Positions 3,651 to 12,800 of a stretch of 64,000 nucleotides of DNA are shown one piece after another. The DNA comes from a virus, in the IMG/VR virus record IMGVR_UViG_3300032220_000872, positions 1 through 64,000 of that record; one strand, written 5' to 3'. Position numbers and translations under genes: made by a program. How positions within the stretch are numbered: the first letter of the stretch is position 1; every line of letters starts with the position of its first letter. The notes beneath the pieces were generated by a model. That model ran no database searches. It was not told the DNA's origin and was given only the letters and a program-made list of their open reading frames with translations.

Positions 3651-3721
3651 TCGCCCAGCACGGCATCTAAAACCAAATAATATATTTTAATCACCACACT
3701 GTGACATTAAATAATCTTACG

Positions 3722-4297
3722 ATGAGAGTGTTTACACAGTCAAACGTGAATCACACCATACCGGACGGGGACATTTGGTTGCCCTGTATCACCACTGAAT
3801 CTGTGGCACATGATCCTGCTGTGGCTCAGCCACTGCTGATCACACACATCGCTGCCATACAACACTATCAACATTCACTCACAGAATTATTGAATCAACC
3901 CATACAATGTGTGGGACGTCACACAGCAGAACGCCTGCGTGACTGTGGATTCCGTCACATACGCTGCAGACTGAGAGCTGCGGATGTGATGATCAGTGGC
4001 CACACCACGTGGTTGCGTGGCTGCCACTACGCCCGAAATTTTTCACTGTATCCAGAAGTCACTGAGATTCAAACCTATCGCAGCACACTGAATCTGCACA
4101 ACATTGAAAAATTATTGCGGGAGAATCCTCACAGCATCCATGTGTACAGTGCTGCTGTGTTGCAAGCATTGGAAACTCGTGCATGGCCTCACACTGAGTT
4201 GTACACAGTGCCATCGGCACCTGCCGCCGAAAATTTATGGCGCACTGTGCATGAGTTTGATCCTAGCGATGCCCACAATCAACTGATCACACACTGA
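3722..4297 (+). CDS. Uroporphyrinogen-III synthase (HemD)-like protein
   Basis: HemD-like motifs appear in the expected order: LP.I.T, LLITH..AI (cf. IFTS.NAV), CVGRHTAERLRDCGF (cf. AVG..TA..L...GF), WLRG, QTYRS, VYS. TAAATA lies 8 nt before ATG 3722. Confidence 0.55.
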   Translation: MRVFTQSNVNHTIPDGDIWLPCITTESVAHDPAVAQPLLITHIAAIQHYQHSLTELLNQPIQCVGRHTAERLRDCGFRHIRCRLRAADVMISGHTTWLRGCHYARNFSLYPEVTEIQTYRSTLNLHNIEKLLRENPHSIHVYSAAVLQALETRAWPHTELYTVPSAPAAENLWRTVHEFDPSDAHNQLITH

Positions 4298-4307
4298 AAG
4301 CACTGAT

Positions 4308-4376
4308 ATGGAAATAATTTTGGGAATTTTTGTGATTGCGATGGCTGCTTACATAATATTCAGAAACGAAGATTAA
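4308..4376 (+). CDS. Putative 22-aa single-pass membrane peptide
   Basis: MEIILGIFVIAMAAYIIFRNED*: a hydrophobic core with a charged tail. Below the ORF-track size cutoff. Confidence 0.45.
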   Translation: MEIILGIFVIAMAAYIIFRNED

Positions 4377-4394
4377 CCCACAGAGGACAACACC

Positions 4395-4514
4395 ATGATA
4401 GAACATATACTGACCATATCTACCTTGTTGCTGATCATAGCAGTGGCCTTGCATATTGTGGACTCCGACACTGATAAAACCACAAACAGAAAAGATCAAT
4501 CTCGTATCAAGTAG
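4395..4514 (+). CDS. Putative 39-aa membrane peptide
   Basis: GAGGA SD, then MIEHILTISTLLLIIAVALHIVDSDTDKTTNRKDQSRIK*: one TM helix plus a charged tail. Confidence 0.5.
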   Translation: MIEHILTISTLLLIIAVALHIVDSDTDKTTNRKDQSRIK

Positions 4515-4874
4515 TGGACGAACCCGTTCGTCCAAGTGATCGCTGCGCTCTCACTGTTTGAATCAATCAAGTTGCGAAGCAACTGCTCGCTCATACAGAT
4601 AGTGGATCCATACTTCTCCCAGAATCGGGAGAAGTGGTGACGTCATACGAGATGAGCACGCCATCTTGAACAGCCATTTCACTGCGGGGCGGTAGCCCTA
4701 TACCCCTCTTGGCTGACTTCATTGCTACGGAACACGGGATCAGCGGTTCAAGCCACTGATCTGTGTGGGTGTTGTGTCTTTTTCACAGAGCACCATCCTT
4801 TTTGCCTCCAGTGCAACTCAGGATTCACTTTCCCTTGCGGGCGCATTTCCTGGATCTCACGATCACCATTGTTG
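4515..4874 (-). ncRNA. Candidate ~360-nt structured non-coding RNA of unrecognised family
   Basis: No credible ORF. GC- and CpG-rich compared with the genome. At least 8 stems, including GNRA-capped hairpins on the minus strand (GAUC-GUGA-GAUC, CCC-GCAA-GGG), ACTTCTCCC/GGGAGAAGT, CAGCCA/TGGCTG and a terminal TGGACGAA/TTCGTCCA hairpin. Confidence 0.6.
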
Positions 4875-5309
4875 CTATGATTTTGCCTTGAGCCTTTTTA
4901 ATTCTTCTCTCAGTAAATTGCTGCCGCCTATGCGTACATTGATGATGCCATTGTAGTATTCATCTGATTCCAACACTCCACGTTCAAACTGTTCCAAAGC
5001 CTCCAAATAGCCCATCACGCCTCGGCTGCGACAAATGTACAGTATTTCTCGGGTGAATTGATCCTGGCCCAAACGCTGCACATCCATCATCAACACATCG
5101 TTGCTGCCCCAATAGTCTCTCCAGTCACTCTCCACCAGACTGCGACGTCTGTTGGTGCGACCTTTCAAAGGTGGACGTGATTTTTTGAACTGTGCCAATT
5201 TTTTGCCCACGTACTTGCGACCTGTTTGAAGATTGGTGATGAGATACACAAATCCCACTGTGCCTTCCGGCAGAGAATCTATGGCTTGACCTTGATACAT
5301 CCATGGCAT
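4875..5309 (-). CDS. Stand-alone GIY-YIG family endonuclease (144 aa; type widespread in T4-like phages)
   Basis: GFVYLITN...RKYVGKK, ESDW..YWGS, F.REIL, E..EQF and YYN match the GIY-YIG catalytic motif order. TAAGTA lies 5 nt upstream of the ATG. Confidence 0.8.
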   Translation of the reverse strand: MPWMYQGQAIDSLPEGTVGFVYLITNLQTGRKYVGKKLAQFKKSRPPLKGRTNRRRSLVESDWRDYWGSNDVLMMDVQRLGQDQFTREILYICRSRGVMGYLEALEQFERGVLESDEYYNGIINVRIGGSNLLREELKRLKAKS

Positions 5310-5361
5310 GCAGCTACTTACATGAGTGAGATTTCATTAGGCAGAGTCTTGGATCTTTGTG

Positions 5362-5395
5362 ATATTTTGGTAGTGAATGAAATATTTTGGTAGTG
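5362..5395. repeat. 14-bp direct repeat, two copies 20 bp apart
   Basis: ATATTTTGGTAGTG at 5362-5375 and 5382-5395, in the intergenic region upstream of the GIY-YIG gene. Confidence 0.8.
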
Positions 5396-5474
5396 TGAGA
5401 AGTCAAAAAATTTTTTGTGCCGCAGCTTTGTACTTCGTACAAACTGTAGCGTCTGCCGCAGCGGCTGCGCCGTG

Positions 5475-5675
5475 CTACTGGCTGCGATTCTTCTCTTTGT
5501 GCTGTTTGTATTCGCGAGCAATCTCCGCTCGGCGTGTGCGACTGAGTTTGCGTATCTCACTCAGCCATTTGCGTGAATGTATTTTGCTTTGACGACTGGG
5601 TCTTTTGGCAAACTTTTCATTGTATTTGAAATAGTTCATGTAGGCTTTGGTCAACTGATCATGTGTGTCATCCAT
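5475..5675 (-). CDS. Small basic DNA-binding protein, Hc1/histone-H1-like (66 aa)
   Basis: Basic helical pattern Y...NEKF......SRKWLSEIRKLSRTRRAEI resembles phage/bacterial Hc1-like proteins. GGAG SD; follows gp46. Confidence 0.45.
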   Translation of the reverse strand: MDDTHDQLTKAYMNYFKYNEKFAKRPSRQSKIHSRKWLSEIRKLSRTRRAEIAREYKQHKEKNRSQ

Positions 5676-5683
5676 AAATGCTC

Positions 5684-7462
5684 CTAGATTTCATGCACTT
5701 CCATAGCATTGCTGTAGGAAGTGAATCCATTCTCTTTGATCACTTTCAATGTGTTGTTCACTCTACCCATCAATTCATCTTTGTGACTGATCAAATATAT
5801 GCTCTTGCCACGCTCTCTGCTCATGCGTTTCAATATGGCCAAGGATGATTCCACACCTGCTGTGTCCAAACCAGAATCTATCAATTCATCTATGAACAAC
5901 AGGTTGATATCCTGATACAAACTCTCCCAAACATCGCGGAAAGCAAAGCTCAATCCTAATATCAATCTATTACGCTCACCTCTGCTGAGATTGTCAAAGT
6001 CCAAATCCTGACCCAATAGAGTGATTTCCACACTCAAATCGTTTTTGAATGTGACTGTGTGTGGCAAGCCCAGTGCTGTGAGATAGTGTGTTAATCTGTT
6101 GTTTAAGAATGCCAAGTTTTGATCTATGATCTTCTTTCTTATGAAACTGTCTTTGTTGGTCAACAGTTTTAATAAAAATTCTTGATGATCTTTGAATGTT
6201 TGCAAACGATTCACTTCGCTCCAATCCAATTCTTGCAGTGCTTCTGTGCTCAATTCCGTGATTTGATCCACATAAGGATTCTGTTCTGCTTTTTTGTTTT
6301 TTAAAGTGCTTTTGTAAGTTTCCAAATACTGTCTGTGTTCATAGGCTTCTTTGACGGTGTTGTAAAATGTTTCAGGACGCTGTGCTTGTGTGCCCAGCAG
6401 TTTGATTGCTTCTTCTATCACAGCAATTTCATCCACAATGCTCATGCTGTAATTCACAGCATCACCATATTCTTCTTCCAGTTTGCGTTGTATTTCACAA
6501 AATTTATCATTGTGTAATTCTTGACCACAAGCATAACAAGTGGCTTTGTCATGCAGTTTGTCCAGATCCTGTCCCACTTTGTTCACAGTTTTGTCTGATT
6601 GCAACAGTGTCATTTCCAAACTGTTCTTGTCTTTTTGTAATTGTTTCAGTTCATTGCTGAATTTGGTCCATTCTTCCAACTGTTGATGTGCTTCCAGTTC
6701 TTGTTCAATATTAACTGCTTCCAACTCTGTGATGGACTTTTTAAGTTTTTCAATGTCTAAATTCTTTTGTGTGTTCCAAATTTTTTCTTTGTTGCTCAAT
6801 GAATTGATGGTTTCTTTGATCTTCTCATTGCTCATTTTGAGACCTTCCAAACGAGCATTTTCCATGGCCATGTCTTCTTTGCTGATTCTAATTTTGTCTT
6901 TGAGCAATTCTGCCTTCTCGCTCAGCAGTGTTATGCCCAGCAATTGTTCAATGATGTCTTTTTGTTCATTGGCACTCATGCTTAAAAACGGTTCAGTGTA
7001 AGTGTTCAATGCCAATATGTGTTTGAACATGGAATGTGACAATCCCAACATGTGATTGATAGCAGCCTGAGTCATACGACTGTCTCCTTGACTCTCATCT
7101 GTGATCTCTTGTTCAGAGTCATTGATAAAGTATCTCAAAGTATTAGGGCGTCTTCCCCTCTCAATACGATATTTCACACCATCTTTTTCAAAAGTTAATG
7201 TGACCAACATGTTTTTGTTGTTGGTTTTATTGACCAAATTTTCTCTGCGTATTTTTGTCAGTGCTTCTCCAAACAAACCATAACTCAATGCATTGATCAG
7301 TGTGGTTTTACCAGTGCCGTTTCTGCTGCCAGCATCATCTCCACCTTGATCCAAATTTTCTCCCAACACCAATGTGAGTCTTTGATTGTCAAAATCCACT
7401 CCTTGAGTTTGATTGCCCACACTCATGAAATTTTTAACTGTTAGACTCTTGATTTTTATCAT
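5684..7462 (-). CDS. gp46: Recombination exonuclease ATPase subunit (T4 gp46 / Rad50-SbcC-like)
   Basis: KNFMS, Walker A GSRNGTGKTT, coiled coil with zinc hook CYAC, signature LSRGE, Walker B LLFIDE, H-loop ISH. Confidence 0.93.
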   Translation of the reverse strand: MIKIKSLTVKNFMSVGNQTQGVDFDNQRLTLVLGENLDQGGDDAGSRNGTGKTTLINALSYGLFGEALTKIRRENLVNKTNNKNMLVTLTFEKDGVKYRIERGRRPNTLRYFINDSEQEITDESQGDSRMTQAAINHMLGLSHSMFKHILALNTYTEPFLSMSANEQKDIIEQLLGITLLSEKAELLKDKIRISKEDMAMENARLEGLKMSNEKIKETINSLSNKEKIWNTQKNLDIEKLKKSITELEAVNIEQELEAHQQLEEWTKFSNELKQLQKDKNSLEMTLLQSDKTVNKVGQDLDKLHDKATCYACGQELHNDKFCEIQRKLEEEYGDAVNYSMSIVDEIAVIEEAIKLLGTQAQRPETFYNTVKEAYEHRQYLETYKSTLKNKKAEQNPYVDQITELSTEALQELDWSEVNRLQTFKDHQEFLLKLLTNKDSFIRKKIIDQNLAFLNNRLTHYLTALGLPHTVTFKNDLSVEITLLGQDLDFDNLSRGERNRLILGLSFAFRDVWESLYQDINLLFIDELIDSGLDTAGVESSLAILKRMSRERGKSIYLISHKDELMGRVNNTLKVIKENGFTSYSNAMEVHEI

Positions 7463-8466
7463 TGTAGATCTCTGTAAATTTCCAGCAGTGTGTTTTTGTT
7501 GTAACTGTCTGATTCTATGGCATTGATCTCTTTGCTAACTATTTCATCCACAGATTCAAAACGTGTGATATCCAATGTACTGGTTAATTCATCATCTTTT
7601 TTGCCTGGTATCAGCACAATTTCTCTACAGTTGTAATCTTTTATGAAAGTTTCTTTGATAAAACTGGCTTCTTCATAGCTGATATCTATGTCCAGAGTGA
7701 CTTGCAAATGCATTTTGGGTTTGATAATGTTTTTGGCATCATTTAATAATTCACCAAGATTAACTTTTAGATATCTAGGACAATTGTACCAATTGATGTA
7801 TCTGGGAGTGCCACCATGTTCCATAATCATCATGCCTCGTTGATCATCATTCACATCAGCATAGTTGTGCGGCATGGGATTGCCTATGTAATGTATATTT
7901 TTTGCTGTTTGACGTTTGTGGAAGTGTCCTGTGAACACATATTCTTGATTCACAAAGTCTCCAGTCTGTATCAATCCAGTGTCTGGCATTTCTATCATAG
8001 CATTCATTAAGAAGTGAGGCAATTCAAAATGACCAAACATGTATCTACTTTTGACTTTTTTGATCTGTTTGTATTCATCTCCCACCAACCAAGGCACCAA
8101 AGTCACATCATCTATGGTGGTGGTTTCTGTGATCACAGTGATACCCGGAATAAATCTAGCAAACTCCACTGAATGAATGTCTCGTTTATCTTTGTAATAC
8201 AAATCGTGATTGCCAGGAAAGAAATAGAATTTTTCAAATGCTTTGCCCAATTTTTCCAAACATTTGATGGAAACATCCATGGTCATCAAATTTAATGAAT
8301 TTCTATTGTGATGCCAGTCACCACAGAATATGCCTGTTTCGCAATTGTTTTGTTTGGCTTGTTCTATGAACCAATCCACGAATTCTTCACAATCTTGATT
8401 GTGAATCACGCTGTTGCTCTTCAAGCCAAAATGTATGTCAGTAAAGACTGCTGCTTTTTTAAACAT
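7459..8466 (-). CDS. gp47: Recombination endonuclease subunit (T4 gp47 / Mre11-SbcD-like)
   Basis: Metallophosphoesterase motifs DIHFG, GDWHH, GNHD, GHFE, GHFH; adjacent to gp46. Confidence 0.93.
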   Translation of the reverse strand: MFKKAAVFTDIHFGLKSNSVIHNQDCEEFVDWFIEQAKQNNCETGIFCGDWHHNRNSLNLMTMDVSIKCLEKLGKAFEKFYFFPGNHDLYYKDKRDIHSVEFARFIPGITVITETTTIDDVTLVPWLVGDEYKQIKKVKSRYMFGHFELPHFLMNAMIEMPDTGLIQTGDFVNQEYVFTGHFHKRQTAKNIHYIGNPMPHNYADVNDDQRGMMIMEHGGTPRYINWYNCPRYLKVNLGELLNDAKNIIKPKMHLQVTLDIDISYEEASFIKETFIKDYNCREIVLIPGKKDDELTSTLDITRFESVDEIVSKEINAIESDSYNKNTLLEIYRDLQ

Positions 8467-8489
8467 CAAATATAAATTTCCAAGACTTC

Positions 8490-9423: not shown

Positions 9424-10281
9424 ATGGCAGATTTATCAAACCAATATTCTCAAAAAGATGCACAGAACTCGGTGTCCGACCTTCTGGGCAGTGATGCCAG
9501 CATCACAGGTTTTGTGAGCAAAGCAGCAGCTACAACGGTGGATTTTGCCAATCCAGCAAAATTTGGTTCTGCTCTCAGATCTAAATTTTTACCAAAAGAC
9601 GGCATGAGTGCAGCCAAGACATTCACACAGGGTGAATCAGCCAGCAAGCCTGGCGAAAAAGACTGGCGTGTGAGATTGAGCGTGCCAGACAACTTCAAAG
9701 AGAATAGTTTTTTGTTGCCATTGCTCAGCACTGGTGGTTTGGTTTTTCCATACACTCCCAGCATTCTTATGAGTCACACAGCCAACTACACTCCAACTAA
9801 TCCCACTCATACCAACTACGCAATGAATTCTTTCAACTACAGCACAGTGGACAACATTCAAATCAACGGTGATTTTTTTGTGCAGAACGGTTTGGAAGCG
9901 CGATACTGGGTGGCAGCAGTGCATTATTTGAGAAGCATCACAAAGATGCGTTATGGTGAAGCCAGCACTGACGCAGGATCACCACCACCAGTGGTGTTGT
10001 TGAATGGCTACGGAGATTTTGTTTTTAAAAATGTACCTGTGGTGGTCACAAGTTTCAACGTGGAATTGCCTCAGGATGTGGATTACATCAGTTGTGGACT
10101 CAATGCAGAAGCTCAAGGAGATTTTGATGAAGGCACATATAAAAATGTGGCTTGGGCACCAGCACAGAGTCAACTCACTGTGCAATTGATGCCACAATAC
10201 AGCAGAACGGCCATATCACAATTTAACATGAATGATTTTGTCAAAGGCAACTACATCAAAGGTGACGGAGGATACATCTAA
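9424..10281 (+). CDS. Baseplate tail-tube-like/initiator protein
   Basis: First gene of the baseplate operon. FPYTP, G.PPPVV.LNGYG and VPVVVTSFNVELP motifs fit tube-fold baseplate proteins (gp48/gp54-like, by inference). Confidence 0.55.
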   Translation: MADLSNQYSQKDAQNSVSDLLGSDASITGFVSKAAATTVDFANPAKFGSALRSKFLPKDGMSAAKTFTQGESASKPGEKDWRVRLSVPDNFKENSFLLPLLSTGGLVFPYTPSILMSHTANYTPTNPTHTNYAMNSFNYSTVDNIQINGDFFVQNGLEARYWVAAVHYLRSITKMRYGEASTDAGSPPPVVLLNGYGDFVFKNVPVVVTSFNVELPQDVDYISCGLNAEAQGDFDEGTYKNVAWAPAQSQLTVQLMPQYSRTAISQFNMNDFVKGNYIKGDGGYI

Positions 10282-10586: not shown

Positions 10587-12800
10587 ATGCCTACAGATAC
10601 TCGCAACAATATACAAGTTAGATCATCCGACGATACATTTGGATCTTCCACAGCAGACGATATTCAAAGATCCACATATGACGCCAATAACACTGTGTTG
10701 TTTCCAAATAAAATTCCCAATCCTCTGCACAATTATAATTCATTCAACACCATATTCACTCTGGCCTGTCTCACTCCGGAAGAACTGAATTTTCCTTACA
10801 GATTGCGTGTGAAATCTCCCACAGTGACTATTTTACGCAGTGGTGGATCTGGAACTTCCAAATACAAAACATTGTATGATCTGGATTTTAATGGTGGAGG
10901 ATCCAACACAAGAATTGCCAGAGAATATTTTATCAACAATGTTCAAATACAAACAGTGATGTCACCCAACAAAAACAGCATGACCAATGCCACCAAAGTG
11001 AATTTCTCTGTGTTTGAACCCTACAGCATGGGCACTTTTATAGAGACTATCAAAGCTGCAGGAGCCCAAGCAGGTTATAAAAATTACGCCCAAGCACCTT
11101 TTTGTCTCATCATGGAATTTGTAGGCACAGATCTCAGCAATAAGACAGTGAACATCACAGATCAAAACAATCGTCCCACCAAAAGAATTCTGCCCATACT
11201 GTTCACAGGCATAAATTTTTCAGCGGATCAAGCAGGTGCTACCTATCAAGTGGATGCTGTGGCACAACCCGAATACAGCATGCGTCGCAGTGTACAATCA
11301 TTGAACACTGATGTCACTATCAGAGGCACCACTGTGCAACAATTCTTGCAAAACAGCCTGCAGGAAGAACTGAACAAAAACAAAAAATCCAAAAACAAAG
11401 AAGGCGATAAAAAATACACAGTGATAGATGACATTATTGTAAATTTTCCCAAACTGGATCAATTGAATCAGCAGAGTCAAAGAACTGCATTCACAGATCA
11501 AAAAGCCACATATGATCCCAATGAACAGAGAACACAATTGGTAGGCACGGGATCACAAGTGCTCAGCACTCCCAGCAGCATTTCCTATGAACAGTCATAT
11601 GCTTCCATGAATGACATAGGCAAGTCTTTGATGAATTTCACTGACAATCAGTTAAAAAATGTGCTCAACGATGATGATAAAAAATTTTATGACAGCAAAA
11701 AGAAAATAATAACCAAACAAAAAATAATCAATCAAAGACTGGGAGAGTTGTCATTCAAAGCAGGTACATCCATAGAAAACATCATAACCAACGTGATACT
11801 GTACAGTGATTACACAAAATTTTTGTTGGCAGACAGTGATGTTAATGGTTTTAAAAAATGGTTTAAAGTGGTTCCTCGAGTGTTTTTGATCAACGATGCT
11901 GAAATTTTAGAAAAAACTGGAGCCTATGCTAGATTGATCGTGTTTGATGTGATAGAACACATGGTGCATGAATCTTTGTTTGTGAAACCCAATGTTAAAA
12001 CCGACACAGTGAAAATCAATAACTTTGTGGTGAAAGAATATGATTATCTTTTCACAGGAAAAAATTTAGACGTTTTAAAGTTTGACATCCAAATCAATAA
12101 TTCTTTACTGGCTCAATTGCCCAGTGATCAGGCGGATTCCAAAGAAGATCCCAACAAAAAATCTAAAGCGGAAAAAGAAAAAAAATCACAAATTGATGAC
12201 AGCAAAGGTGACACAGCTGACAGCAAGACTGCATCAGCACAAACCACTACCAATTATTTTTACAGTCCCACAAAAAACACCATGGAATCTGTGGGAGAAT
12301 TGAGCACTGAACAAAAAATGGCTTTGGAATTCCATGATTTTATAACCACAGGTCAGGTAGCCTTTGTCAAAGCAGACTTGAGCATATTGGGTGATCCATA
12401 TTTTATTGCTGACAGCGGCACCGGCAATTACTATTCACAAATAGAAACAGACCCTAAAACAGGCAACCCTAAATTTATCAACAAAGACGGCAGCATGGAG
12501 CCCACATTTGCCGGAGTGTATGTGGTTTTAAATTTCCGCACACCTATAGATTATGCCAGCAATGGTCAGATGATATTCAAAGACACTGCCAGTCAACTGA
12601 ATAAAAATTTTGTTAAACTAGCTCAGTTCAGTGGAGTTTTCCAAGTGGTGCAAGTGGAAAACATTTTTGAAAATGGTGTTTTTAGGCAAGAATTGCAACT
12701 GACTAGAATTCCCAATCAAGAAGTTAAAAAAGAAAAAGGAAAATCCACAGGTTCTTTTTTAAAAGATAATATTCCAACAATTGATAACACAGGTGCATAA
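10587..12800 (+). CDS. Baseplate hub protein (gp27/GpD-like, 737 aa)
   Basis: Position between the gp53-like and gp5-like genes. C-terminal L.ILGDP and G.F.V..V...FENG.F.Q.L.L.R motifs of hub proteins. Confidence 0.55.
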   Translation: MPTDTRNNIQVRSSDDTFGSSTADDIQRSTYDANNTVLFPNKIPNPLHNYNSFNTIFTLACLTPEELNFPYRLRVKSPTVTILRSGGSGTSKYKTLYDLDFNGGGSNTRIAREYFINNVQIQTVMSPNKNSMTNATKVNFSVFEPYSMGTFIETIKAAGAQAGYKNYAQAPFCLIMEFVGTDLSNKTVNITDQNNRPTKRILPILFTGINFSADQAGATYQVDAVAQPEYSMRRSVQSLNTDVTIRGTTVQQFLQNSLQEELNKNKKSKNKEGDKKYTVIDDIIVNFPKLDQLNQQSQRTAFTDQKATYDPNEQRTQLVGTGSQVLSTPSSISYEQSYASMNDIGKSLMNFTDNQLKNVLNDDDKKFYDSKKKIITKQKIINQRLGELSFKAGTSIENIITNVILYSDYTKFLLADSDVNGFKKWFKVVPRVFLINDAEILEKTGAYARLIVFDVIEHMVHESLFVKPNVKTDTVKINNFVVKEYDYLFTGKNLDVLKFDIQINNSLLAQLPSDQADSKEDPNKKSKAEKEKKSQIDDSKGDTADSKTASAQTTTNYFYSPTKNTMESVGELSTEQKMALEFHDFITTGQVAFVKADLSILGDPYFIADSGTGNYYSQIETDPKTGNPKFINKDGSMEPTFAGVYVVLNFRTPIDYASNGQMIFKDTASQLNKNFVKLAQFSGVFQVVQVENIFENGVFRQELQLTRIPNQEVKKEKGKSTGSFLKDNIPTIDNTGA

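What the first reader, a model, noticed from the sequence alone, without database searches (positions are those of the whole stretch)
4515..5320. GIY-YIG nuclease gene followed directly by a ~360-nt highly structured RNA: possible ribonucleoprotein or RNA-guided system
Seen on the minus strand, starting at the nuclease stop: GCAAC/GUUGC closing a junction that holds GAUC-GUGA-GAUC (4864-4853) and CAGGA...CCC-GCAA-GGG...UCCUG (4852-4819), both with GNRA tetraloops in this orientation only. These are followed by GGUG..CACC, GAUCAGUGG/CCGCUGAUC with a G-U pair (4761-4738), CAGCCA/UGGCUG enclosing GGGG/CCCC (4715-4671), AGAUG/CAUCU, a 9-bp ACUUCUCCC/GGGAGAAGU stem (4635-4612) and a terminal UGGACGAA/UUCGUCCA hairpin. 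A possible long-range GUGAUCGU/GCGAUCAC pairing links the two ends (4866-4859 with 4543-4536). The nuclease has its own late-type box, so gene and RNA would share one transcript. The 144-aa protein is essentially a catalytic domain with a basic insert (KKSRPPLKGRTNRRR) and lacks the DNA-binding domains of homing GIY-YIGs. Known: compact nucleases paired with adjacent large RNAs (IscB/HEARO, TnpB/omegaRNA) are RNA-guided. Inference: this could be an undescribed nuclease-RNA complex or a new large phage ncRNA class. I could not match it to tmRNA, RNase P or group I/II introns.
Basis: partly seen in the sequence, partly recalled or inferred. Interest (0 to 1): 0.85.

Follow-up and report, generated by a model that had tools for sequence, protein, structure and literature searches.

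The report
Large knotted phage RNA behind nuclease gene
Directly after a small nuclease gene of an uncultured giant lake phage lies a real, conserved, doubly knotted non-coding RNA of about 360 bases from a widespread and almost uncatalogued phage RNA family; it does not look like a guide for the nuclease, and its job is unknown.

Summary
Window 4516-4877 (minus strand) encodes a ~360-nt structured RNA that starts at the stop codon of a 144-aa SegE-type GIY-YIG gene. Nine helices are 96.1% paired in 42 relatives, against 42-49% in slid controls, and 31 of 49 pairs show changes on both sides. G-U pairs place the RNA on the nuclease strand.

Two proposed pairings and the "late-type box" are not supported.

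The RNA has no Rfam match. Sister RNAs share its central and 3' domains but carry Rfam Polynucleobacter-1 (RF01718) in place of its 5' junction.

Linkage to the nuclease is tight:
- 70 of 70 nuclease loci with enough downstream sequence have the RNA.
- 97 of 99 RNA loci with enough upstream sequence have the nuclease.

Linkage is not obligate:
- One 302-kb record, 85% complete, keeps the RNA and has no nuclease.
- Seven cultured phage genomes, five of them with the nuclease homologue, show no match to the RNA model.

There is no guide-like variable segment, so an RNA-guided nuclease is unlikely. Two identical 6-nt words ("twin boxes") co-vary in 152 of 154 RNAs and remain unexplained. This scan found the same family earlier on four other genomes.

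The parts
4875..5309 (-). 144-aa stand-alone SegE-type GIY-YIG nuclease gene
   Evidence: Pfam PF19835, E 9.6e-32, residues 3-123. 7428 homologues were found, and most of the 120 listed are 143-144 aa. Y22, Y33, R55, E103 and N120 are invariant in 7 aligned homologues.
4516..4877 (-). The whole structured RNA (Type I twin-box RNA), from the stop codon to the last hairpin
   Evidence: Conserved without an open frame. 96.1% of cells are paired on the sense strand against 84.9% on the antisense strand, with 238 against 7 G-U cells. G+C is 51.5% against 38.8% for the window.
4813..4875 (-). 5' three-way junction: P1 GCAAC 4875-4871 with GUUGC 4817-4813. It encloses the GAUC-GUGA-GAUC hairpin (4864-4853) and CAGGA/UCCUG (4852-4848 with 4823-4819), which in turn holds CCC-GCAA-GGG (4841-4832).
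   Evidence: P1 is 100% paired in 42 sequences, with 3 of 5 pairs changed on both sides. The inner stems covary. In sister RNAs this domain is replaced by RF01718.
4768..4794 (-). P2 hairpin GGUG/CACC, with inner UGUG/CACA and a nearly invariant A-rich loop
   Evidence: 100% paired, 3 of 4 pairs changed on both sides. The loop letters are invariant.
4739..4760 (-). P3 hairpin AUCAGUGG/CCGCUGAU. Its loop supplies the 5' strand of pseudoknot 2 (UUGAA, 4751-4747).
   Evidence: 99.2% paired, 5 of 6 pairs changed on both sides.
4666..4670 (-). 3' strand of pseudoknot 2 (UUCAA), pairing with the P3 loop at 4751-4747
   Evidence: Found by a helix scan. 96.2% paired, 4 of 5 pairs changed on both sides. 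Complementary words also seen by eye in the two RF01718-type RNAs inspected, L027 and L060: AGCGU/ACGCU and AGCAG/CUGCU.
4724..4728 (-). 5' strand of pseudoknot 1 (GUAGC)
   Evidence: Pairs with GCUAC at 4696-4692. 100% paired in 38 distinct sequences aligned by a model that did not contain this helix, with 4 of 5 pairs changed on both sides.
4686..4715 (-). The stem CAGCCA 4715-4710 with UGGCUG 4676-4671 encloses the hairpin GGGG 4706-4703 with CCCC 4689-4686. The loop of that hairpin holds GCUAC 4696-4692, the 3' strand of pseudoknot 1.
   Evidence: The outer stem has 4 of 4 pairs changed on both sides and is 97.4% paired. The inner hairpin is 97.4% paired.
4643..4661 (-). Module A: weak hairpin GCGUG/CUCGU, ending in box A (CUCGUAUGA, 4651-4643)
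   Evidence: 71% paired on the Type I alignment, 2 pairs changed on both sides. The word GUAUGA is identical to that of box B.
4612..4635 (-). 9-bp hairpin ACUUCUCCC/GGGAGAAGU between the two boxes
   Evidence: 97.3% paired, with U-G/C-G and G-C/G-U/U-A exchanges.
4591..4599 (-). Box B (UCUGUAUGA), the twin of box A
   Evidence: The 6-nt words of boxes A and B are identical in 152 of 154 RNAs in which both were located. Nine different words occur. In Type I the words are identical in 40 of 40.
4571..4583 (-). Hairpin GUUGC-UUC-GCAAC
   Evidence: 4 of 5 pairs changed on both sides, 84.3% paired.
4536..4554 (-). Hairpin GUGA/UCAC capped by the conserved GAGCG..AGCGA motif (possible tandem G-A pairs)
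   Evidence: The stem covaries across the 57-sequence core alignment (GUGA/UCAC, GCUU/AAGC, GUUC/GAAC, GCGUU/AACGC). The inner C-G changes to U-A.
4516..4533 (-). Terminal hairpin GGACGAA-CGGG-UUCGUCC. No U tract follows it.
   Evidence: All 7 pairs changed on both sides. The terminator scan found 0 sites in 4200-5800.
5475..5675 (-). 66-aa basic ORF between the gp46-like gene and the nuclease gene; conserved upstream neighbour
   Evidence: Among 162 loci, the nearest upstream ORF of at least 70 aa fell in the small-ORF cluster (87) or the gp46-like cluster (33). It is not specific to phages with the RNA: it matches S-SRM01 at E 9e-5.

Best explanation
Window 4516-4877 (minus strand) is a gene for a large non-coding RNA that works as a folded RNA in its own right. 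It is a Type I member of a modular family of phage RNAs of about 370-620 nt.

It is probably transcribed together with the GIY-YIG gene, because no terminator-like site separates them. It folds into a 5' three-way junction, two hairpins, a double-pseudoknot core and a 3' domain. The 3' domain displays the same 6-nt word twice, followed by three hairpins.

Inferred, not shown: the conserved unpaired stretches and the twin words are contact surfaces for one partner bound twice, or alternately. That partner could be a host or phage RNA, a dimeric protein, or another copy of the RNA. Under this reading the nuclease gene is a neighbour that shares the transcription unit rather than an obligate partner.
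For: Structure:
- 9 helices are 96.1% paired in 42 sequences, against 42-49% when partners are slid.
- 31 of 49 pairs changed on both sides, and 0 of 500 shuffles reach the covariation score.
- Pseudoknot 1 is 100% paired in an alignment made without it.
- Strand: 238 G-U cells on the sense strand against 7 on the antisense strand.
- Non-coding.

Family:
- 192 of 201 loci carry the core, and 90 of them carry an RF01718-like 5' domain.
- A simple anchor rule for pseudoknot 1 is met in 80 of 87 RF01718-type RNAs, against 1 of 173 shuffled sequences.

Autonomy:
- The RNA is kept in L110/G001, which has no PF19835 match in 302,518 bp (CheckV 85%), while controls score 8e-35 and 1e-33.
- L090 also lacks the upstream nuclease.
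- The nuclease family exists without the RNA.

Twin words: identical in 152 of 154 RNAs.
Against: - 97 of 99 RNA loci with at least 900 nt upstream do have the nuclease directly upstream on the same strand. 70 of 70 nuclease loci with at least 400 nt downstream have the RNA. A functional tie therefore remains possible.
- That linkage could equally be vertical synteny, since the upstream gp46-like gene and small ORF are also conserved.
- G001 is 85% complete and G002 26%, so a nuclease gene could lie in the missing parts.
- No discrete RNA species has been shown. RNA-library contigs are at depth 2-4 and span the ORF-RNA border.
- No partner for the twin words was found in cis.
Confidence: 0.5

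Rival explanations
1. Nuclease-RNA complex without guiding. The RNA binds the (probably oligomeric) GIY-YIG enzyme, perhaps through the twin boxes. It holds the enzyme in check, localises it or tunes its specificity, much as an RNA antitoxin or scaffold would.
For: Same strand and immediate adjacency: P1 starts at the G of the stop codon. Linkage is 97 of 99 and 70 of 70 across nuclease identities of 46-99%. The two identical words would suit a symmetric dimer. The protein lacks a DNA-binding domain of its own.
Against: The RNA is retained without any PF19835 gene in G001. The nuclease, with the same basic insert, is found in Melnitz, phiN3 and cyanophages without the RNA. Nothing in the protein alignment sets apart the proteins of phages that have the RNA.
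Confidence: 0.2
2. New self-cleaving or otherwise catalytic RNA that frees itself from the nuclease transcript or acts on another RNA.
For: There are many invariant unpaired nucleotides around a double-pseudoknot core. The element starts exactly at the stop codon. Conservation of this degree is unusual for a mere scaffold.
Against: No Rfam ribozyme family matches at E<=10. No processing site is visible, because only contigs were available. At 360-620 nt it is far larger than known small self-cleavers.
Confidence: 0.1
3. Cis-acting untranslated region: a 3' UTR that stabilises or regulates the nuclease mRNA, or a 5' leader or riboswitch for the next gene. Rfam's source paper labelled Polynucleobacter-1 as cis-regulatory.
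For: It is co-directional with, and contiguous to, the nuclease ORF. In 56 of 134 loci the next gene downstream is co-directional. Weinberg 2010 lists Polynucleobacter-1 as cis-regulatory 'y' and switch '?' (one table row seen).
Against: In the window the next ORFs converge on the RNA. The same holds for at least the 17-locus and 9-locus downstream clusters. The RNA persists without the nuclease gene. A 360-620-nt double-pseudoknot fold is much more than stability elements usually need.
Confidence: 0.12
4. RNA-guided GIY-YIG nuclease (like OMEGA or CRISPR systems).
For: A compact nuclease lies beside a large RNA, and the protein has no DNA-binding domain.
Against: There is no room for a terminal guide. 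The 5' end is the stop codon and the 3' hairpin ends 2 nt before a convergent ORF. Close relatives (96% and 88% identical) differ only at scattered positions and at a peripheral loop. The RNA occurs without the nuclease and the nuclease without the RNA. HEARO and other guide-RNA families in Rfam do not match.
Confidence: 0.03
5. Not an RNA: a DNA-level element (origin, packaging or recombination site made of hairpins), or a decayed C-terminal half of a longer homing endonuclease gene.
For: The region is G+C-rich and hairpin-rich between convergent genes. Homing Seg enzymes have C-terminal DNA-binding domains that this protein lacks.
Against: G-U pairs are strand-specific: 238 against 7, and 96.1% against 84.9% paired. 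Pseudoknots covary. Most of the 120 nuclease homologues listed are 143-144 aa long, which argues against truncation here. No frame is conserved in the region.
Confidence: 0.03

Closest known systems
Polynucleobacter-1 RNA motif (Rfam RF01718; Weinberg et al. 2010, PMC2864571; one table row seen)
   Same: RNAs that carry this 141-nt motif sit in the same place, just after the homologous GIY-YIG gene. By nhmmer they share the part of the window's RNA that runs from the pseudoknot region through the twin-box domain to the 3' hairpins. An anchor rule for pseudoknot 1 is met in 80 of 87 of them. In the two I read by eye, the A-rich linker, P2, P3 and pseudoknot 2 are also recognisable. The habitat label, fresh water or estuary, fits the lake RNA libraries that hold the window's sequence.
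   Different: The window's RNA has no RF01718 match, even at E<=10. A 63-nt three-way junction stands where the motif would be. Rfam describes only the 141-nt piece, as a candidate cis-regulatory element. Here that piece proves to be one exchangeable 5' module of a 370-620-nt RNA.
HEARO / IscB omega-RNA and TnpB omega-RNA (RNA-guided OMEGA nucleases; properties recalled, not from a call)
   Same: A compact nuclease gene lies directly beside a large structured RNA of about 300 nt on the same strand.
   Different: The nuclease fold is GIY-YIG, not RuvC/HNH. There is no guide segment. No transposon ends were seen. Co-occurrence is not obligate. Rfam gives no match.
GOLLD and ROOL large ornate RNAs of phages and prophages (abstract of 10.1101/2024.12.08.627333 seen in a search listing; the rest recalled)
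   Same: A large, pseudoknotted, highly conserved RNA of unknown function encoded by phages. It has many invariant unpaired nucleotides.
   Different: There is no sequence or model match. It is smaller, and it is linked to a nuclease gene. Whether it forms oligomers is untested.
T4 SegE and other GIY-YIG homing endonucleases (Pfam PF19835)
   Same: The catalytic domain matches over its full length, profile positions 1-123 of 123.
   Different: The protein has 144 aa and no C-terminal DNA-binding domain. It sits at a fixed position after the gp46-like gene in this phage group, so it does not behave like a mobile homing gene. GenBank records often label it 'NAD synthetase'.

Membership tests
Rfam RF01718 Polynucleobacter-1 | Covariance-model match at or above the gathering score (37 bits) | tested here: not met
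   No match in the whole window at gathering score, and none at E<=10 on 4200-5500. Sister loci L027, L060, L071 and L036 score 64-90 bits.
Twin-box RNA family (uncatalogued; includes the RF01718-bearing RNAs) | Shared 3' core: two modules ending in the same 6-nt word, a hairpin between them, a UUC-loop hairpin, a G-A-motif hairpin and a terminal hairpin | tested here: met
   nhmmer finds the core in 192 of 201 loci, the window included. The words are identical in 152 of 154 RNAs. The window carries GUAUGA twice.
Twin-box RNA family (uncatalogued; includes the RF01718-bearing RNAs) | Double-pseudoknot central domain | tested here: met
   Pseudoknot 1 is 100% paired and pseudoknot 2 is 96.2% paired, each with 4 of 5 pairs changed on both sides. 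The window's strands are perfectly complementary.
RNA-guided nucleases (IscB/TnpB OMEGA type) | A variable guide segment at one end of a conserved scaffold | tested here: not met
   The alignment of close relatives shows no terminal variable segment, and both RNA ends abut ORFs.
RNA-guided nucleases (IscB/TnpB OMEGA type) | Obligate co-occurrence of nuclease and RNA | tested here: not met
   G001 has the RNA and no PF19835 match. Five cultured phage genomes with the nuclease homologue, plus two cultured jumbo relatives, have no R1 match; the best E is 0.027.
tmRNA | tRNA-like domain plus a tag reading frame, as detected by ARAGORN or the Rfam tmRNA models | tested here: not met
   ARAGORN finds 0 genes in the window and 0 in 59 related elements. 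Rfam gives no match.
Group I / group II introns, RNase P RNA | Match to the family models; for introns, an interrupted host gene | tested here: not met
   No Rfam match at E<=10. The flanks are a complete ORF and convergent ORFs, not exons.
GIY-YIG nuclease, SegE type (the protein) | Full-length match to the catalytic-domain profile | tested here: met
   PF19835: 110.3 bits against a cut-off of 25, profile positions 1-123 of 123.
GIY-YIG nuclease, SegE type (the protein) | Catalytic Tyr, Tyr, Arg, Glu and Asn retained | tested here: inconclusive
   Y22, Y33, R55, E103 and N120 are invariant in 7 homologues. Assigning them to catalytic roles rests on recalled I-TevI literature. No structure was predicted here, and no PDB sequence relative was found at E<=1.
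Homing endonuclease (mobile Seg-type gene) | A C-terminal DNA-binding domain and sporadic, mobile distribution | tested here: not met
   The protein has 144 aa and only about 20 residues beyond the catalytic domain. In 120 of 162 loci the nearest upstream ORF of at least 70 aa is the small basic ORF or the gp46-like gene.
Intrinsic terminator / simple 3' UTR | A G+C-rich hairpin followed by a U tract | tested here: not met
   0 terminator-like sites in 4200-5800. The terminal hairpin is followed by ACUACUUG.

The most novel reading that the evidence does not exclude
The twin-box RNA is a new functional class of large phage RNA. It is a doubly knotted scaffold that presents the same 6-nt word twice. 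It would use the two copies either to seize two copies of one partner (a host RNA such as a tRNA or mRNA, a dimeric protein, or a second RNA molecule) or to toggle one strand between two equivalent docking sites. It acts on its own during infection by giant T4-like phages, and in most of them the neighbouring GIY-YIG nuclease may serve as an optional effector.
Probability: 0.3. Interest if true: 0.8.

Novelty: new variant of a known kind. Interest (0 to 1): 0.62.

Why it matters
- New large, intricately folded RNAs are rare, and each one decoded so far has revealed a new mechanism.
- This RNA was found in more than 190 of the uncultured phage contigs fetched here, and freshwater RNA libraries hold parts of it.
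- It shows that an orphan Rfam motif described in 2010 is only one exchangeable module of a much larger RNA.
- Two distant words that always mutate together give a sharp, testable structural puzzle.
- The clean negative on RNA guiding saves effort for anyone mining nuclease-RNA pairs for genome-editing tools.

Tried and rejected
Known RNA classes
- Rfam over the whole window at gathering score found nothing. The region at E<=10 found nothing.
- ARAGORN found nothing.
- Ideas I considered by eye and dropped because the motifs are not conserved: box C/D or K-turn, T-box, HDV-like and group I topologies, and short ORFs starting at the AUGAUG words. These comparisons rest on recalled consensus features, not on a tool result.

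Searches that found nothing
- blastn against 50,697 phage records with three queries: the window, L013 and L027.
- PDB sequence search with the nuclease.

Analyses that failed or misled
- The first column-pair scan was too noisy to use.
- In the first structure count I nested the brackets of pseudoknot 1 and the CAGCCA stem wrongly, so its helices 7-9 are meaningless. The other helices of that call are cited.
- MAFFT and model R2 both place the three or four rows of the window's own subgroup one column off around 4703-4715. These rows appear as 'other: 4'. I checked the window's pairs directly instead.
- Model R2 found only 44 Type I RNAs among 100 sources and no RF01718-type RNA. I showed their shared pseudoknot with an anchor rule instead.
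- The columns were chosen by a scan of the same alignment, which favours them. One search is the unbiased test for pseudoknot 1.

Twin boxes
- A search for a cis partner of the twin words found only an invariant GU and the end of the 9-bp hairpin. The latter fails in 5 of 40 sequences.
- The small basic upstream ORF as a specific partner was rejected, because it also occurs in the RNA-less phage S-SRM01.

Expression
- Only contigs at depth 2-4 were available, in 4 RNA libraries.
- Parts without cover, and the small shares in the other runs, say nothing.

Literature
- I made two searches for prior description: 'Polynucleobacter-1' gave 1 paper, and 'GIY-YIG / noncoding RNA / phage / covariation' gave 96 papers, of which 15 were listed and none was relevant by title or abstract.
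- I make no claim beyond these two searches.
- Supplements of Weinberg 2010, which may describe the motif's gene context, were closed.

Other gaps
- No positive control of model R1 through the genome search was run. The model's own seed sequences match by construction.
Full report
**What is at the coordinates**

On the minus strand, a gp47-like gene (7459-8469) and a gp46-like gene (5684-7462) are followed by three things:
- a 66-aa basic ORF (5475-5675);
- a 144-aa ORF (4875-5309);
- about 360 nt with stops in all three sense frames.

The 144-aa protein is a full-length match to Pfam PF19835, the SegE GIY-YIG domain, with E 9.6e-32 over residues 3-123.

Two tiny plus-strand ORFs, which I read by eye at 4308-4376 and 4395-4514, converge on the region. 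The last RNA hairpin ends 2 nt from a convergent stop codon.

The window belongs to an IMG/VR virus record of 83,837 bp that CheckV rates 23% complete. Its gp46-like protein is closest, at 48% identity, to PA5oct-like and other jumbo phages.

**Is the structure real?**

Single-sequence folding is only mildly unusual: z -2.35 on the sense strand and -3.19 on the antisense strand. The case rests on comparison.

I fetched 80 IMG/VR loci through the nuclease protein. The stretch after the stop codon is conserved at DNA level, at 96%, 88% and about 68% identity. It has no conserved open frame. In 57 elements the longest stop-free stretch has a median of 69 aa, where a median of 146 would be possible.

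On a 42-sequence alignment of full-length relatives (A3):
- nine helices are 96.1% paired, against 41.9-48.8% when the 3' partners are slid by 1-3 columns;
- 31 of 49 pairs changed on both sides;
- 0 of 500 shuffles reach the observed covariation score.

These columns came from a scan of the same alignment, which favours them. As an unbiased check I built a covariance model that contained only two nested helices. On the alignment it produced, the pseudoknot helix left out of the model is 100% paired in 38 distinct sequences, with 4 of 5 pairs changed on both sides.

The RNA strand is the nuclease strand. The same columns give 96.1% paired with 238 G-U cells on that strand, and 84.9% with 7 G-U cells on the other.

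Confirmed:
- the GCAAC/GUUGC junction and its two inner hairpins;
- GGUG/CACC;
- the GAUCAGUGG hairpin;
- CAGCCA/UGGCUG around GGGG/CCCC;
- the 9-bp stem;
- the terminal hairpin.

Not supported:
- AGAUG/CAUCU and the long-range 8-bp pairing. They are 56-78% paired, and their covariation score of 0.087 equals the shuffled mean of 0.080.
- The 'late-type box'. TATAAATA occurs only at 2497 and 2541, and the promoter scan flags nothing upstream of the gene.

**Anatomy in window coordinates, minus strand**

1. P1, 4875-4871 with 4817-4813, closes a three-way junction.
2. An A-rich linker follows.
3. P2, 4794-4768, has an invariant loop.
4. P3, 4760-4739.
5. Pseudoknot 2 joins the P3 loop (4751-4747) to 4670-4666.
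6. Pseudoknot 1 joins 4728-4724 to 4696-4692. The latter lies in the loop of the GGGG/CCCC hairpin, which itself lies inside the CAGCCA/UGGCUG stem.
7. Module A ends in box A (4651-4643).
8. The 9-bp hairpin, 4635-4612.
9. Box B, 4599-4591.
10. A UUC-loop hairpin, 4583-4571.
11. A hairpin capped by a GAGCG..AGCGA motif, 4554-4536.
12. The last hairpin, 4533-4516. No U tract follows it.

G+C is 51.5%, against 38.8% for the window.

**The twin boxes**

The 6-nt words that end modules A and B are identical in 40 of 40 Type I RNAs. Across all types they are identical in 152 of the 154 RNAs where both were located.
- Nine different words occur.
- The two mismatches look like mislocations by my pattern.
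- In 5 further RNAs a box was not located.

In module A the first two letters of the word pair within a small hairpin. For box B I found no consistent cis partner. I cannot explain the identity. Possibilities are one strand that toggles between the two boxes, one partner bound twice, or contacts between RNA molecules.

**Family and its one catalogued piece**

Iterated nhmmer found the element in 72 of the 81 loci held at that point: 80 IMG/VR loci plus Melnitz.
- Eight misses are contigs with at most 374 nt after the gene.
- The ninth miss is Melnitz.
- So 70 of 70 loci with at least 400 nt downstream have the element.

Rfam, run on 13 divergent loci, matched RF01718 (Polynucleobacter-1) at 64-90 bits in 4 of them, over the first ~140 nt after the gene.

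Over 201 loci, 192 have the core and 90 carry an RF01718-like 5' domain. The window does not.

RF01718-type RNAs also share the window RNA's middle:
- Reading L027 and L060 by eye shows the A-rich linker, P2, P3 and both pseudoknots, each with different but complementary words.
- An anchor rule for pseudoknot 1 is met in 80 of 87 of them, against 1 of 173 shuffled sequences.

RF01718 is therefore an exchangeable 5' module that stands where the window has its three-way junction.

The only paper found for the motif lists it in one table row: RNA 'y', cis-regulatory 'y', switch '?', Burkholderiales and fresh water or estuary. Its supplements were closed.

**Linkage to the nuclease**

Of the 99 confirmed loci with at least 900 nt upstream, 97 have the nuclease directly upstream on the same strand. 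Its identity to the window's protein is 46-80%.

The exceptions are L090 and L110:
- L090 has a 98-aa ORF that looks MazG-like to me, by eye, and short tandem repeats in front of the RNA.
- L110 has about 700 ORF-less nt with tandem repeats where the nuclease gene would be.

L110's record (G001: 302,518 bp, CheckV 85%) has no PF19835 match at E<=1. Two control records score 8.2e-35 and 1.4e-33. L090's record (G002, 26% complete) has only a 15-bit match elsewhere.

The nuclease also occurs without the RNA:
- tblastn finds the nuclease family in 708 phage records.
- In phiN3, S-SRM01 and ACG-2014f the next CDS starts 0-88 nt after the gene.
- In Melnitz the homologue is 62.5% identical, and only about 150 nt follow it.
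- Model R1 of the core finds nothing better than E 0.027 in seven whole cultured genomes: Melnitz, phiN3, S-SRM01, Variovorax V45v66, ACG-2014f, PA5oct and Phosso.

Context:
- Upstream is conserved. In 120 of 162 loci the nearest ORF of at least 70 aa is the small basic ORF or the gp46-like gene.
- Downstream varies: 20 clusters among 134 loci, some co-directional and some convergent.

Much of the linkage could therefore be inherited synteny.

In the species-genome collection only 4 of 40 pattern matches were real. All four lie on contigs of metagenome-derived assemblies, one of them labelled Polynucleobacter sp., and the nuclease is upstream in the three where the sequence allows a check.

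**Expression**

Twenty runs hold parts of the stretch, 18 of them on record as RNA. They are mostly lake or freshwater metatranscriptomes.

I laid four on the window. Contigs at depth 2-4 cover both the ORF and the RNA, and two contigs bridge the stop codon (4733-4978 and 4724-5232). This is compatible with co-transcription. It shows neither abundance nor RNA ends, and DNA carry-over cannot be excluded.

**Reading**

Shown:
- a real, sense-strand, doubly pseudoknotted non-coding RNA;
- membership of a widespread modular family;
- linkage to the nuclease gene that is tight but not obligate.

Inferred:
- It acts as a folded RNA on its own (confidence 0.5).
- A nuclease-binding regulator (0.2), a cis-acting UTR (0.12) and a new ribozyme (0.1) are the live rivals.
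- RNA guiding (0.03) and DNA-level or coding readings (0.03) are close to excluded.

**Relation to earlier notes of this scan**

After I had found the RF01718 link and the repeated modules, a look-up showed that the scan had met this family on four other genomes, with similar verdicts. One of those notes called the RNA 'doubly knotted'. That prompted the scan in which I found pseudoknot 2.

**Limits**

- No full-length covariance model or R-scape could be run.
- The window's own subgroup is misaligned by one column around 4703-4715 in A3 and A5.
- Virus records are incomplete.
- Only two literature searches were made.

Noticed in passing
window 5362-5395 (minus strand): A 14-nt direct repeat (CACTACCAAAATAT) occurs twice, 20 nt apart (5395-5382 and 5375-5362), in the 165-nt gap upstream of the nuclease start. 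It could be a promoter or an operator.
   Followed up: no
window 5418-5462 (minus strand): Just after the stop of the 66-aa ORF, a 9-nt direct repeat (GCTGCGGCA at 5462-5454 and 5426-5418) flanks a 7-bp A/T-rich hairpin. A run of A and then T follows. The terminator scan did not flag it.
   Followed up: partly
window 4308-4376 and 4395-4514 (plus strand): Two tiny hydrophobic ORFs, which I read by eye at 22 and 39 aa, converge on the RNA. The second stops 2 nt from the last RNA hairpin. The listed 82-aa minus-strand ORF 4287-4535 (TTG start) overlaps that hairpin and looks spurious.
   Followed up: no
L090 (about 10,780-10,850) and L110 (about 9,700-9,990): In the two loci where the RNA lacks the upstream nuclease gene, short tandem repeats built on a TAGGCACA-like word lie directly in front of the RNA. 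A TAGGCA word also follows the nuclease stop codon in several other loci.
   Followed up: partly
GenBank phage records: The stand-alone GIY-YIG protein family is widely annotated as 'NAD synthetase' in cyanophage, rhizobiophage and Felixounavirus records. Given the PF19835 match, this looks like a propagated mislabel.
   Followed up: partly
L260 (Sinorhizobium phage Phosso) 4849-5488: In this cultured 469-kb phage the gp46-like gene is followed by a 70-aa ORF and a 146-aa ORF, the same order and sizes as in the window. A convergent gene starts 29 nt later, and model R1 finds no match in the genome. I did not check whether the 146-aa ORF is the nuclease homologue.
   Followed up: partly
Melnitz L081 and ACG-2014f L246: In these phages the nuclease homologue lies a few small genes downstream of the ribonucleotide reductase small-subunit gene, not after gp46. 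The gene's position therefore differs between phage groups.
   Followed up: no
window 3701-4297 (plus strand): The 198-aa ORF has only a weak, sub-threshold Pfam HEM4 match: E 0.0095, 15.5 bits against a cut-off of 27.5. Homologues of it are the convergent downstream neighbour of the RNA in 17 loci.
   Followed up: no
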